NCBI GenBank assembly: GCA_001821765.1
Contig: MHOA01000001.1
Location: 88,294-152,293 of the forward strand
Length of the DNA: 64,000 nt
Source of the DNA: Candidatus Ryanbacteria bacterium RIFCSPLOWO2_12_FULL_44_26
GTDB taxonomy: Bacteria > Patescibacteriota > Minisyncoccia > Ryanbacterales > HO2-45-13
Reading direction: 5' to 3'
Below the pieces are notes generated by a model. That model made no database searches. It saw nothing but the letters and a program-made list of their open reading frames with translations, and was not told where the DNA came from. Positions 61,384 to 63,273 of the stretch are shown in pieces (position 1 is the stretch's first letter; each line of letters opens with the position of its first letter). The translations under genes were made by a program, and so were the position numbers.

Positions 61384-63273
61384 GTGTTTATCGTAACCGT
61401 ATATCCGTTAAAACCAATATATCCGCTCAACAAGCAAGCGGCGCTTTCCTATTTCTCATCCTTACATCTGAAGCGCGGTGCACTCATTACAGTTCCCATA
61501 AAAAACAAGCTGGTCTTAGCAATAGTTGCCCACACCGATTCAATTAAACAAAAAAAGCTATTTTTAAAAACAAGCCCGTTTCAGGTAAAACGCATTCACT
61601 CAATAATATGTGATGCGCCGTTCTTTCATACAGATCTTATAACAATTTCAAAAAAGCTTTCGGAGTTCTATGTACAACAAGAAGGGGTTATTCTAAGACA
61701 CTTTTTTCCTTCTTATATCCTCAAACACTGCAAACAACTGAGTCCATACGTGCAAAAAGAATTTTCACTTAGGAAAAGCACAACACCGACACTTGTTACC
61801 GGAAGTATCAATGTAAGACTTAAAGAATATCAAAACATTATCAATGATCACATACAAAAAAATAATATTGTATGGCTTGTAACGCCAACCATTGCTTTTG
61901 TAGAATACTTCTATAAACACTTAAAAACAAAAGCAGAAAAAGTAATTATGCTGCATGCTAAACTCCCAGTAAAAACGTTGATTGAAAATTGGGAAGCGGC
62001 GAGAAATAAAAAAGGCCTGCTTGTTATAGGGACGCCGGTGATACTCGGAACCCTGCATCATGCTGTTAGCGCCATTATTCTTGACAACGCATCATCGCCG
62101 CACATGCGTTATCCGCATATTCCTTATATAAACATACGGCATGTGTTTAGGAACATAACCGAAGAAAAAACCATCACATATGCAGAAGGGCTCATAACAC
62201 CGCTTACCGATGACGTCTATGATATCAAACGAGGCGCTGTAAAACTTCAGGAAACCCGACACCCGCGTCAGAATGGGACAAGAATATTTATTGATATGCA
62301 AAAAGAACAACATAAAAAAGGCGCGTTTCCTATTCTATCTGAATCGCTGATGCATGAAATAAAAAAAAGCAATTCCAGAATGATATGCTTTTTAAATAGA
62401 AAAGGATACAGCCCCCTTATTCTGTGCAAAGACTGCGGATCCGCCCTCTACTGCCCCTCGTGCAAAGCTCCGATGACATTGCACAAAAAGGATAAAAAGC
62501 GATTTTTTATCTGTCATCACTGCGGCCATACCATGTCCGCTGAAACCCAATGCGCCGTATGCGACAGTTGGAATCTGACAGCGTACGGCATTGGAACGCA
62601 ACGGCTTGAAGAAGAAATGAAAAAACTTGCTCCGGAAAAACATGTTTTTCGTTTTGATGCTGATACAATAAAAAACAATAAAGAAAGAAAAAAAATATTT
62701 GAGCAATTCCTTCAAACAAAGCATGGCATACTGATAGGAACAGAAATGGTTTTTGAAGAACCAGAGCTCTACTCTCCGTTTATTGCGATAATCAGCGTTG
62801 ACCATATGCTGACACTGCCGGATTTCCGAATAAATGAACAGGTTTTACGAATACTAGAAACGTTAGCAGCAAAATGTGAGATATTGATGCTGCAGTCTTT
62901 TCTTACAGACCACCTTCTTATAAAATCGTTCTTAAAACATGAAAGCAAACGATACTTCATAAAGGAACTGCAAGAACGAAAAAAGGCATATCTTCCCCCT
63001 TATTCGCTTATGATAAAAGTAGTTCTTGAAAACAAAAATAAAGCACTGCTTATAAAACAAGCGCAGCAAGCGGAAATGCTGCTCAAACACATCAACGCCC
63101 ACACACAATCAGTAAAAGCTTTCATACCAAAAAAAATGGACAGATGGAGGTGGCACATCTTCCTTCGCGTTTCCTTAGATCAATGGGTTAAAAACGAAGA
63201 CCATCTAAAAAGGACGCTGGCAAACCTCGAAGGCAACTACAGTATTGTTGTTGACCCAGCTTCAACTCTATAG
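61384..63273 (+). CDS. priA: primosomal protein N' (PriA) homologue with degenerate ATPase motifs
   Basis: Colinear with PriA helicase core and Cys-rich Zn module (CKDCGSALYCPSC..CHHCGH..CAVCDS), but Walker A is LVTGSINV and DEEH box is ILDNAS. Confidence 0.8.
   Translation: MFIVTVYPLKPIYPLNKQAALSYFSSLHLKRGALITVPIKNKLVLAIVAHTDSIKQKKLFLKTSPFQVKRIHSIICDAPFFHTDLITISKKLSEFYVQQEGVILRHFFPSYILKHCKQLSPYVQKEFSLRKSTTPTLVTGSINVRLKEYQNIINDHIQKNNIVWLVTPTIAFVEYFYKHLKTKAEKVIMLHAKLPVKTLIENWEAARNKKGLLVIGTPVILGTLHHAVSAIILDNASSPHMRYPHIPYINIRHVFRNITEEKTITYAEGLITPLTDDVYDIKRGAVKLQETRHPRQNGTRIFIDMQKEQHKKGAFPILSESLMHEIKKSNSRMICFLNRKGYSPLILCKDCGSALYCPSCKAPMTLHKKDKKRFFICHHCGHTMSAETQCAVCDSWNLTAYGIGTQRLEEEMKKLAPEKHVFRFDADTIKNNKERKKIFEQFLQTKHGILIGTEMVFEEPELYSPFIAIISVDHMLTLPDFRINEQVLRILETLAAKCEILMLQSFLTDHLLIKSFLKHESKRYFIKELQERKKAYLPPYSLMIKVVLENKNKALLIKQAQQAEMLLKHINAHTQSVKAFIPKKMDRWRWHIFLRVSLDQWVKNEDHLKRTLANLEGNYSIVVDPASTL

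What the first reader, a model, noticed from the sequence alone, without database searches (positions are those of the whole stretch)
61384..63273. PriA homologue lacking the Walker A lysine and the DEEH box - probably an ATPase/helicase-dead primosome protein
Seen: the protein is colinear with PriA across the helicase core and the Cys-rich Zn-binding insertion (CKDCGSALYCPSC...CHHCGH...CAVCDS), with GTQRLEEE and LNRKGYSP blocks. Where PriA has GVTGSGKT it has LVTGSINV, and where PriA has IIVDEEHD it has IILDNASS. No GxxxxGK[ST] occurs anywhere in the ORF. Established: the Walker A lysine and DExH acidic residues are essential for PriA ATPase and helicase activity, but E. coli PriA helicase-deficient mutants still assemble the primosome. 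Inference: this organism keeps PriA only as a structure-specific loader or scaffold for DnaB, whose gene sits in the same window.
Basis: partly seen in the sequence, partly recalled or inferred. Interest (0 to 1): 0.55.

Follow-up and report, generated by a model that had tools for sequence, protein, structure and literature searches.

The report
ATPase-dead PriA in a Parcubacteria genome
This gene is the organism's own copy of the replication-restart protein PriA, but it has lost every sequence element needed to burn ATP; the same loss is seen in hundreds of related candidate-phyla bacteria, so the protein probably only recognises broken replication forks and recruits the replicative helicase.

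Summary
ORF 61384-63273 (+) encodes a 629-aa PriA orthologue. It has the 3' DNA-binding domain, two RecA-like lobes, an 8-Cys zinc region and the PriA C-terminal domain. The AF2 model has pLDDT 93.8 and TM 0.83 to E. coli PriA.

The ORF has no P-loop. The Walker A lysine is Arg145, DEEH is DNAS, and the Q motif and motifs III and VI are lost. Sequencing error is unlikely because identical DNA occurs in independent metagenomes (Candidatus Ryanbacteria). It is also not an extra paralogue: priA-def-fmt synteny is shared with canonical Patescibacteria PriAs.

The degeneracy is clade-wide. All 120 closest homologues, and the 146 further representatives among the best 150 profile hits, lack the motifs. 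Other short Patescibacteria PriAs keep them, so the loss happened inside this radiation. Retained residues are motif IV (lagging-strand ssDNA pore), the zinc region, the GT of motif V and the C-terminal domain.

Most likely it is a pseudohelicase that binds forks and serves as a platform for DnaB loading. This matches Deinococcus radiodurans PriA and the E. coli priA300 (K230R) allele, so it is a new member of a known kind. Two corrections: its Walker A register was off (K to R, not K to N), and dnaB, 55 kb away, is not linked evidence.

The parts
61384..63273 (+). priA orthologue, 629 aa, predicted pseudohelicase (Candidatus Ryanbacteria; NCBI OGZ42149.1 and others)
   Evidence: ORF. Pfam PriA_3primeBD, Zn_ribbon_PriA and PriA_C are all above their gathering scores, with no DEAD or ResIII hit. 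NCBIfam TIGR00595 priA scores 228.0 bits against a cut-off of 230.35. PDB PriA E=1.4e-39. AF2 pLDDT 93.8, and Foldseek TMq 0.83 to 8fak_H. Source names.
61384..61713 (+). 3' DNA-binding domain (aa 1-110), with the clade-invariant residues L21, Y23, F24 and G32
   Evidence: Pfam PF17764, aa 21-109, 26.7 bits against a cut-off of 22.7. Invariant columns. hhalign aligns LSYF with the F-D/E-Y-L pocket strand of canonical PriA.
61714..61788 (+). Short linker (aa 111-135). It replaces the winged-helix domain and the Q-motif helix of canonical PriA.
   Evidence: DSSP of the model shows coil from 115 to 135. Canonical Patescibacteria PriA P0286 has helix 128-138 carrying the invariant Q130. That segment is not conserved or is absent in the window protein and the core clade.
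61792..61830 (+). Degenerate motif I (aa 137-149, LVTGSINVRLKEY). Arg145 sits at the Walker A lysine column and the glycine-rich loop is lost.
   Evidence: Searches give the alignment register. R145 is invariant in 119/119 sequences. In the model only 2 residues separate strand beta1 (136-139) from helix 142-157. The canonical control model has a 5-residue loop and a helix that starts at K156.
62074..62097 (+). Degenerate motif II (aa 231-238, IILDNASS, in place of IIIDEEHD)
   Evidence: D234 is kept, while E to N235, E to A236 and H to S237.
62392..62415 (+). Retained motif IV (aa 337-344, LNRKGYSP). R339 and G341 are invariant.
   Evidence: In E. coli PriA the equivalent R427/R428 bind lagging-strand ssDNA in the PriA pore (paper PMC13594977).
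62425..62568 (+). Cys-rich zinc-binding region (aa 348-395), four CxxC pairs
   Evidence: Pfam PF18319, 28.7 bits against a cut-off of 26. C348, C357, C360, C377, C380, C390 and C393 are invariant, and C351 is kept in at least 90%. This is the most conserved domain between the window protein and P0002, at 54% identity.
62857..62883 (+). Position of motif VI (aa 492-500, ETLAAKCEI). The QxxGRxGR arginine finger is lost.
   Evidence: Q513, G516, R517, G519 and R520 of canonical PriA are all absent, and two of these columns are deleted.
62914..63273 (+). PriA C-terminal domain (aa 511-629) plus the stop codon
   Evidence: Pfam PF18074, 27.7 bits against a cut-off of 26.9. R532, P538, P539 and P625 are retained from the canonical invariants.
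63280..63822 (+). def (peptide deformylase), immediately downstream. fmt follows beyond the window end. This marks the conserved priA-def-fmt block.
   Evidence: Pfam. Gene order on longer contigs. The same order occurs next to canonical (L049), core-clade (L050) and P0272 (L051) PriAs.
4968..6359 (-). dnaB replicative helicase, the presumed client of PriA. It is 55 kb away and not genetically linked.
   Evidence: Pfam DnaB and DnaB_C, E=9e-102. Intact Walker A, ARPSLGKT.

Best explanation
The gene is the positional orthologue of priA in a Candidatus Ryanbacteria (Parcubacteria, Patescibacteria) genome. Its product is a pseudohelicase. It keeps the PriA fold and the DNA- and partner-binding modules: the 3'BD, motif IV of the ssDNA pore, the zinc-binding CRR and the CTD. 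It cannot bind or hydrolyse ATP, because the Q motif and motifs I, II, III and VI are destroyed and the P-loop has collapsed into helix alpha1.

The inferred mechanism has three steps. First, the protein recognises abandoned forks or D-loops through the 3'BD and the helicase-lobe surface. Second, it holds lagging-strand ssDNA with motif IV and the CRR. Third, it offers a platform on which DnaB is loaded, either directly or through an unidentified adaptor.

Because it cannot unwind a duplex lagging arm, it should act only on forks that already expose ssDNA, or depend on another helicase or nuclease. The loss is an evolved, lineage-wide state. It is the natural counterpart of E. coli priA300 (K230R) and of D. 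radiodurans PriA.
For: Shown here:
- PriA domain set and fold.
- No P-loop, and 27 of 61 canonical invariant columns lost, all clustered in the nucleotide-binding motifs.
- Collapsed beta1-alpha1 loop in the model, compared with a canonical control model.
- Degeneracy in all 120 nearest homologues and in the 146 further representatives (not already among those homologues) in the 150 best profile hits from 1.84e9 representatives.
- Canonical motifs retained in other ~650-aa Patescibacteria PriAs.
- priA-def-fmt synteny shared by canonical and degenerate forms.
- Identical DNA in independent assemblies.
- Invariant R339/G341 (motif IV), eight Cys, GT of motif V and the PP of the CTD.
- CRR and lobe 2 are the best-conserved parts between the window protein and its nearest relative.

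From the literature:
- K230R abolishes ATPase and helicase activity but supports primosome assembly and the PriA-PriB pathway.
- D. radiodurans PriA, which also carries K to R, has no ATPase or helicase activity yet binds ssDNA, fork DNA and DnaB.
- Motif IV arginines bind ssDNA in the PriA pore.
Against: - No biochemical data exist for this protein or any Patescibacteria PriA. ATPase death is inferred from sequence and a predicted model.
- The DnaB-loading role rests only on analogy.
- In E. coli, a helicase-dead PriA needs PriB. No PriB, DnaT, PriC, DnaD, DnaI, DnaC or DciA gene was found among the roughly 50 window ORFs scanned, and the rest of the genome could not be searched.
- Asp17 of the E. 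coli 3'-end pocket is Ser22 here, so 3'-end recognition may differ.
- In this lineage lobe 1 evolves fast (26% identity to P0002), which could also mean partial loss of function.
Confidence: 0.72

Rival explanations
1. Neofunctionalised PriA derivative. The protein keeps the fold and the DNA-binding modules but no longer works in replication restart. It might instead be a structure-specific DNA-binding factor in recombination, natural transformation or chromosome maintenance, or it might have a new binding site in the former ATPase cleft.
For: In the large core clade the dead lobe 1 is as conserved as any other domain (48% pairwise identity). It carries its own near-invariant replacement motifs: Q-x4-[DE]R, [ED]xE[SN]S, GDxLLRxET and QTR. 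This points to a new constraint on the cleft. No known PriA partner genes were seen in the window.
Against: The window protein itself has lost most of those replacement motifs, keeping 12 of 26 signature residues. Whatever they do is therefore not essential here. The modules that stay invariant are exactly those used in restart by E. coli PriA: motif IV, the CRR, the 3'BD and the CTD. Positional orthology with canonical PriAs also holds.
Confidence: 0.15
2. Decaying relic. The gene is drifting towards loss in a reduced genome and the product has little or no function.
For: This lineage is a fast-evolving outlier, with 27% mean identity to the rest of the clade and 37% to its nearest relative. 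It has lost both the canonical motifs and the core clade's replacement motifs. NCBI annotates the protein as hypothetical.
Against: The 629-codon ORF is intact, and length is conserved across hundreds of lineages. There are 22 invariant columns across 119 sequences, including seven cysteines (the eighth is kept in at least 90%). The predicted fold is very confident, at pLDDT 93.8. The CRR is 54% identical to P0002 against 12% in the linker, which shows domain-specific purifying selection. The gene also keeps its place at the head of the priA-def-fmt block.
Confidence: 0.06
3. The protein is still an ATPase or helicase that uses a non-canonical nucleotide site, for example Arg145 plus other residues, or the proposed second weak nucleotide site of PriA.
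For: Arg145 is invariant in 119/119 sequences. [quoted passage not shown]
Against: The K to R change alone kills ATPase in E. coli PriA and correlates with no measurable ATPase in D. radiodurans PriA. In addition, the glycine-rich loop, the Q motif, the catalytic Glu of DExH, SAT and the arginine finger are all missing, and the loop is predicted to be helical.
Confidence: 0.04
4. Assembly or sequencing artefact, or an extra paralogue alongside a canonical PriA.
For: More distant Patescibacteria do have canonical PriAs.
Against: The gene's DNA is identical in JGI samples 3300002105, 3300002104, 3300009285 and 3300002223 and in ENA ERZ27254743, and the protein is indexed in 49 blocks. The canonical and degenerate forms occupy the same priA-def-fmt locus in their respective genomes. 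Neighbouring genes look normal (dnaB has an intact P-loop).
Confidence: 0.03

Closest known systems
Deinococcus radiodurans PriA pseudohelicase (Lopper, Boone & Morrow 2015, PLoS One, PMC4504706) and Deinococcus-Thermus PriAs generally
   Same: Both are PriA orthologues with the Walker A lysine replaced by arginine and a degenerate Walker B. The D. radiodurans protein was shown experimentally to lack ATPase and helicase activity while still binding ssDNA, fork DNA and DnaB. The window protein has the same K to R change (R145) and retains the DNA-binding modules.
   Different: - The lineage is different (Parcubacteria/Patescibacteria), so the loss is presumably independent.
- Degeneration goes much further here. 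The paper names only poor matches in motifs I and II for Deinococcus-Thermus; here the glycine-rich loop, the Q motif, SAT and motif VI are also lost.
- The protein has no winged-helix domain and is short (629 aa).
- No biochemistry exists for it.
E. coli PriA K230R (priA300) and the K230A/D variants
   Same: These are single-residue ATPase- and helicase-dead PriAs that still assemble primosomes and support the PriA-PriB restart pathway in vivo. Arg145 is the natural equivalent of K230R.
   Different: priA300 is a laboratory allele in an otherwise intact helicase core, and it depends on PriB. The window protein has lost all the nucleotide-binding motifs, and no PriB or DnaT was identified.
Canonical PriA / primosomal protein N' (TIGR00595; structures 4nl4, 6dgd, 6dcr, 8fak)
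   Same: Domain order is the same: 3'BD, lobe 1, lobe 2 with the CRR insertion, then CTD. Foldseek gives TMq 0.83 to 8fak_H and 0.71 to the E. coli delta-WH construct 6dcr_A. The priA-def-fmt gene order is also shared.
   Different: There is no winged-helix domain, a trait shared with canonical ~650-aa Patescibacteria PriAs. The ATPase motifs are absent. The TIGR00595 score is just under the curated cut-off (228.0 against 230.35).
Actinobacterial 'primosome assembly protein PriA' (NCBIfam PRK14873 models)
   Same: From memory only: UniProt flags mycobacterial PriA as lacking detectable helicase domains. If correct, this would be another natural PriA without helicase motifs.
   Different: This was not verified. 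The papers searched say nothing about it. The window protein matches the PRK14873 models only weakly, at no more than 66 bits, so it does not belong to that group.

Membership tests
PriA (replication restart protein, primosomal protein N') | N-terminal 3' DNA-binding domain | tested here: met
   Pfam PF17764, aa 21-109, 26.7 bits against a cut-off of 22.7. hhalign to canonical PriAs starts at aa 19.
PriA (replication restart protein, primosomal protein N') | Two RecA-like SF2 lobes with the PriA-specific overall fold | tested here: met
   AF2 pLDDT 93.8 and pTM 0.92. Foldseek hits 1-9 are all PriA, with TMq 0.62-0.83. The next family (Mfd, RecQ) has TMq of 0.40 or less.
PriA (replication restart protein, primosomal protein N') | Cys-rich region with four CxxC pairs inserted in lobe 2 | tested here: met
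   Pfam PF18319, 28.7 bits against a cut-off of 26. All eight Cys are present, and they are invariant or at least 90% conserved in the clade.
PriA (replication restart protein, primosomal protein N') | PriA C-terminal domain | tested here: met
   Pfam PF18074, 27.7 bits against a cut-off of 26.9.
PriA (replication restart protein, primosomal protein N') | Curated equivalog score (NCBIfam TIGR00595) | tested here: not met
   228.0 bits against a cut-off of 230.35. All PRK05580 sub-models score far below their cut-offs. The shortfall is explained by the missing motifs.
PriA (replication restart protein, primosomal protein N') | SF2 ATPase motifs: Q motif, I (GxGKT), II (DEEH), III (SAT) and VI (QxxGRxGR) | tested here: not met
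   All are absent, and Arg145 sits at the lysine column.
PriA (replication restart protein, primosomal protein N') | Winged-helix domain between the 3'BD and lobe 1 | tested here: not met
   Only about 25 residues of coil lie between aa 110 and 136. The domain is also missing from canonical-motif Patescibacteria PriAs of about 650 aa, so it is not required for membership in this phylum.
PriA (replication restart protein, primosomal protein N') | Positional orthology (priA-def-fmt block) | tested here: met
   Window and longer contigs. The same block sits next to the canonical P0286, the core-clade P0030 and P0272.
PriA (replication restart protein, primosomal protein N') | Fork or D-loop binding, and loading of DnaB | not testable with these tools
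   This needs biochemistry or genetics.
PriA pseudohelicase (D. radiodurans type) | Evolved from a PriA helicase, with the PriA architecture kept | tested here: met
   The protein nests among Patescibacteria PriAs, some of which are fully canonical.
PriA pseudohelicase (D. radiodurans type) | Walker A lysine replaced (K to R) and Walker B degenerate | tested here: met
   R145 is invariant. DNAS replaces DEEH. The paper describes K to R in Deinococcus-Thermus.
PriA pseudohelicase (D. radiodurans type) | No ATPase and no duplex unwinding | not testable with these tools
   Predicted from the motif loss and the collapsed P-loop in the model.
PriA pseudohelicase (D. radiodurans type) | Retained ssDNA and fork binding, and a DnaB interaction | not testable with these tools
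   Only indirect evidence is available: invariant motif IV (R339/G341), the CRR and the 3'BD.
PriA pseudohelicase (D. radiodurans type) | Common descent with the Deinococcus-Thermus proteins | not tested
   No Deinococcus-Thermus PriA sequence could be obtained. The presence of canonical PriAs within Patescibacteria argues for an independent loss.

The most novel reading that the evidence does not exclude
Across most of the Parcubacteria radiation, PriA has become an ATP-independent fork clamp. Its former ATPase cleft has been rebuilt into a new, strongly conserved site (Q-x4-[DE]R, [ED]xE[SN]S, GDxLLRxET, QTR). That site could serve as an interlobe latch or as a docking site for a partner. 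On this reading, such a PriA alone (without PriB, DnaT, PriC or DnaC) loads DnaB in these minimal genomes. The Ryanbacteria protein in the window would be a second-stage derivative that has shed even the rebuilt site. The recurrent K to R change (Parcubacteria, Deinococcus-Thermus, and the laboratory allele priA300) would then mark a preferred evolutionary route to a functional dead PriA.
Probability: 0.2. Interest if true: 0.6.

Novelty: new member of a known kind. Interest (0 to 1): 0.4.

Why it matters
[quoted passage not shown] The evidence here shows a second and far larger group, much of the Parcubacteria, in which the PriA orthologue has lost every ATPase motif yet is kept under constraint.

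This supports the idea that the core, ancestral job of PriA is structure recognition and helicase recruitment, not unwinding. It also offers a natural series of intermediates within one phylum: canonical forms, forms with motifs I and VI lost, and forms with all motifs lost. That series could be used to dissect which PriA features are needed for ATP-independent restart.

Finally, it raises the question of how restart works in tiny genomes with no recognisable PriB, DnaT or PriC. For annotation, names such as 'ATP-dependent helicase PriA' are misleading for these proteins.

Tried and rejected
1. The genome-contig scan with the window protein hit only alphaproteobacterial, Gemmiger and Alteromonas canonical PriAs, through the CHHCGHTM pattern. 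It found no close relatives. I used those loci only as canonical references.

2. I tried a purifying-selection test from strain polymorphism. All six copies of the gene (the window plus L044-L048) are identical at the DNA level, so there is no signal. The nearest homologue, at 37% identity, is too distant for dN/dS.

3. I considered that the pseudohelicase is locked in the fork-bound 'CRR-UP' conformer, because the model matches 8fak_H (TMq 0.83) better than the apo structures (0.71). This was rejected. A control model of a canonical Patescibacteria PriA (P0286) shows the same preference, 0.85 against 0.73.

5. P0126 has 'GEFARGKS', which looked like a possible P-loop. It lies downstream of motif I, in the clade's IRExFAKK segment, so it is a chance match.

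6. Literature searches for PriA in CPR, Patescibacteria or Parcubacteria found nothing relevant. Searches for an actinobacterial precedent also found nothing, so that precedent stays a recollection.

7. A search for a dif-like site at the presumed terminus gave 9 matches against 4.1 expected, and none lay in 36-39.8 kb.

8. An Rfam scan of the window found only two tRNAs.
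Full report
**1. The observation**

The ORF 61384-63273 (+) starts at GTG and encodes 629 aa. No [AG]xxxxGK[ST] occurs anywhere in the protein.

Family and structure searches all point to PriA:
- Pfam finds PriA_3primeBD (aa 21-109), Zn_ribbon_PriA (357-384) and PriA_C (539-600), all above their gathering scores. Helicase_C is only sub-threshold, and there is no DEAD or ResIII hit.
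- NCBIfam TIGR00595 (priA) scores 228.0 bits, just under the curated cut-off of 230.35.
- The best solved structures are PriA from K. pneumoniae and E. coli (E=1e-39). In that alignment IILDNASS pairs with IVIDEEHD.

**2. Register of motif I**

MAFFT with six canonical PriAs and profile-profile hhalign agree. Arg145 occupies the Walker A lysine column, and Tyr149 pairs with the Tyr of GKTEVY. The lysine is replaced by Arg, and the glycines by Ile142 and Val144.

**3. Extent of the loss**

An alignment of 88 canonical PriAs (A2) has 61 invariant columns. The window protein keeps 34 of them and has lost 27.

The lost columns are:
- the Q-motif Gln
- motif I (T, G, K, T)
- motif Ia (E, L)
- the GARSxxF block
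- both Glu of DEEH
- the aromatic-loop Tyr
- S and A of SAT
- Q and G of motif V
- all of QxxGRxGR (two of these columns are deleted)

The kept columns are:
- all eight Cys and two His of the zinc region
- N338 and G341 of motif IV, with R339 at the neighbouring, nearly invariant Arg column
- GxG after the CRR
- the GT of motif V
- D473, Q504 and R532
- the PP of the C-terminal domain
- P625

The segment that carries the Q-motif helix in canonical proteins is not conserved or is absent.

**4. Structure**

AlphaFold2 with the 119-sequence alignment A1 gives pLDDT 93.8 and pTM 0.92. Foldseek hits 1-9 are all PriA. TMq is 0.83 to the fork/PriB-bound E. coli PriA 8fak_H, and 0.71 to the E. coli delta-WH construct 6dcr_A and to apo 4nl4. 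The next families, Mfd and RecQ, stay at or below 0.40.

There is no winged-helix domain. Only about 25 coil residues separate the 3'BD from lobe 1.

In the model, strand beta1 (136-139) is followed by two residues and then helix 142-157, with R145 on its first turn. A control model of the canonical Patescibacteria PriA P0286 (pLDDT 90.5) has the expected five-residue P-loop, with the helix starting at K156. The phosphate-binding loop is therefore predicted to have collapsed.

**5. Not an artefact, and not a paralogue**

The identical 629-aa protein, with identical DNA, occurs on contigs from JGI samples 3300002105, 3300002104, 3300009285 and 3300002223 and from ENA ERZ27254743. It is indexed in 49 blocks of the collection.

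Source names give Candidatus Ryanbacteria (OGZ42149.1 and others). NCBI calls it 'hypothetical protein' and UniRef calls it 'ATP-dependent helicase PriA'. The lineage is Patescibacteria group, then Parcubacteria group, then Ca. Ryaniibacteriota.

Neighbouring genes look normal, and dnaB has an intact P-loop (ARPSLGKT). The gene heads a priA-def-fmt block. The same block follows three other PriAs:
- a fully canonical Patescibacteria PriA (P0286, L049)
- a core-clade degenerate PriA on a 1.0-Mb contig (P0030, L050, also with holB-like and mreB upstream, as in the window)
- P0272 (L051), where the block is interrupted by an integrase

The degenerate proteins are therefore positional orthologues of PriA.

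**6. Distribution**

All 120 best homologues, which come from Patescibacteria, Paceibacteria and 'Minisyncoccia', lack both the P-loop and DE[EA]H. A profile search of 1.84 billion cluster representatives found 9,791 PriA-like proteins at E<=1e-30. The best 150 all score above 700 bits. Among the 146 of them not already in the first homologue set, none has a P-loop at motif I.

Within alignment A1, about 110 sequences form a 'core' group with about 45% mean identity. This group has its own near-invariant replacement motifs:
- [IV][FIL]Q-x4-[DE]R-x-A-x-Y
- TII[LIV][ED]xE[SN]SxxYK
- GDxLLRxET
- GTEM
- QTR

The window protein, P0002 (37% identity), P0003 and P0119 are outliers that keep only 12-14 of 26 signature residues.

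A rough NJ tree gives (P0119,((P0003,(P0002,window)),core)) against proteobacterial and firmicute references.

A search seeded with P0119 showed that other ~650-aa Patescibacteria/Parcubacteria PriAs are fully canonical, with GVTGSGKT, DEEH, SATP and QxAGRTGR. Examples are P0283, P0285-7, P0289, P0293, P0296-7, P0299 and P0304-11. The same search revealed several further degenerate groups with intermediate states:
- P0272-77 keep DEEQ/DDEH and SxTP but have lost motifs I and VI.
- P0291 keeps DEEH.
- In P0279, P0284, P0288, P0290 and others, the motif I region is deleted.

Three regularities hold among the sequences examined. Motif VI is gone in nearly every sequence that has lost motif I. Motif IV (NR[RK]G) is retained in nearly all sequences examined. 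Arg occupies the lysine column in nearly all degenerate forms that still align there. The loss therefore happened inside the Patescibacteria, after the short WH-less architecture arose, and proceeded stepwise.

**7. Constraint**

In the core clade, lobe 1 is as conserved as any other domain (48% pairwise identity against 41-48% elsewhere). This remains unexplained. In the window's own lineage, lobe 1 is the least conserved folded domain. Identity between the window protein and P0002 is 26% in lobe 1, against 54% in the CRR, 46-49% in lobe 2 and 12% in the linker. Selection on the window protein thus acts mainly on the CRR and lobe 2.

**8. Mechanism**

*Established knowledge.*
- E. coli PriA K230R (priA300) lacks ATPase, helicase and translocase activity, yet it behaves almost like wild type in vivo and assembles primosomes. 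[quoted passage not shown]
- D. radiodurans PriA carries K to R and a poor Walker B. It has no measurable ATPase or unwinding activity. It binds ssDNA (Kd about 215 nM), fork DNA (about 108 nM) and its own DnaB.
- In E. coli the motif IV arginines R427/R428 bind lagging-strand ssDNA inside a pore closed by the CRR. PriA must unwind a duplex lagging arm before that pore can form.

*Inference for the window protein.* It recognises forks through the 3'BD and the lobe surface. It holds lagging-strand ssDNA with motif IV and the CRR. It serves as the platform for DnaB loading. Because it cannot unwind, it should act only on forks that already expose ssDNA, or it should rely on other enzymes.

The motif loss, the fold, the orthology and the conservation pattern were shown here. 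ATPase death, DNA binding and DnaB recruitment are inferred.

**9. Rival explanations**

- *Neofunctionalisation.* This is not excluded. It draws support mainly from the core clade's rebuilt cleft, which the window protein lacks.
- *Decay.* This is unlikely, given the invariant Cys and motif IV residues, the confident fold and the domain-specific conservation.
- *Cryptic ATPase.* This is very unlikely.
- *Artefact or paralogue.* Sequencing error is very unlikely given the identical DNA in independent assemblies, and a paralogue is made unlikely by the shared synteny; a whole-genome search for a second priA was not possible.

**10. Comparison with what is known, and novelty**

PriA pseudohelicases are a known kind (Lopper 2015). 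The review literature treats Deinococcus as the sole exception. I found no paper describing this state in CPR, Patescibacteria or Parcubacteria.

The window protein is therefore a new member of a known kind. Two extra points of interest are the size of the affected radiation and the graded series of intermediates. My recollection that UniProt flags actinobacterial PriA as lacking helicase domains could not be verified.

**11. Window context**

The window carries housekeeping chromosome genes of a Parcubacterium:
- recR-dnaB, cysS, corA, ctpA, pyrG and scpAB
- a mur/ftsW/murG block, mraZ-mraW and PBPs
- two mreB genes, mreC, a holB-like gene, frr, rseP and proS
- murC, which is divergent from priA

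No PriB, DnaT, PriC, DnaD, DnaI, DnaC or DciA domain was detected among the ORFs scanned.

Noticed in passing
window 34000-39800: GC skew changes sign here: the cumulative maximum of 1.20 falls at 34-38 kb. Gene orientation also converges, with + strand genes up to 38.5 kb and - strand genes from 39.8 kb. This is probably the replication terminus. Two ORF-poor stretches (36028-37347 and 38512-39797) flank a PD-(D/E)XK nuclease gene (37348-38511). A search for a dif-like core found nothing above chance.
   Followed up: partly
window 16000-18900: A low-GC island (GC 0.317, against about 0.42 elsewhere). It carries a FeeM/autoinducer-synthase-like N-acyl amino acid synthase (16512-17144) and a 7TM-sensor histidine kinase (17171-18829). 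It may be horizontally acquired.
   Followed up: no
alignment A1 (core Parcubacteria PriA clade, e.g. P0087, P0030, P0068): The dead ATPase cleft of the core clade carries its own near-invariant motifs: Q-x4-[DE]R-x-A-x-Y, [ED]xE[SN]SxxYK, GDxLLRxET and QTR. Lobe 1 is as conserved as the other domains. This constraint on a non-catalytic cleft is unexplained. The window protein has lost most of these residues.
   Followed up: partly
proteins P0272-P0306: Patescibacteria PriAs form a graded series. Some are fully canonical. Some have lost motifs I and VI but keep DEEQ/DDEH and SxTP. In some the motif I region is deleted. Some are fully degenerate. Arg sits at the Walker A lysine column in almost every degenerate form that still aligns, mirroring E. 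coli priA300 (K230R) and the Deinococcus-Thermus PriAs.
   Followed up: partly
window 53178-54233 and 58026-59048: Two mreB paralogues, together with mreC (52407-53165) and a PBP2-type transpeptidase (50269-52005). One mreB sits next to a holB-like clamp-loader gene (57221-58024), an arrangement also seen upstream of priA in locus L050.
   Followed up: no
window 4330-6359: recR (4330-4962) lies immediately downstream of dnaB (4968-6359) on the - strand, separated by only 5 bp. A recombination-mediator gene therefore appears to be co-transcribed with the replicative helicase gene.
   Followed up: no
models m603906396290 and mdf25bd9e36cf: AF2 models of both the pseudohelicase and a canonical Patescibacteria PriA match the fork/PriB-bound E. 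coli PriA conformer 8fak_H (TMq 0.83 and 0.85) better than the apo structures (0.71 and 0.73). As far as I know, AF2 was trained only on the apo-like structures. This may reflect the absence of the WH domain rather than biology.
   Followed up: partly
window 18960-20936: A large secreted-type protein with NHL/beta-propeller repeats and a thrombospondin type 3 repeat (658 aa, TTG start). This is unusual content for a small Parcubacteria genome.
   Followed up: no
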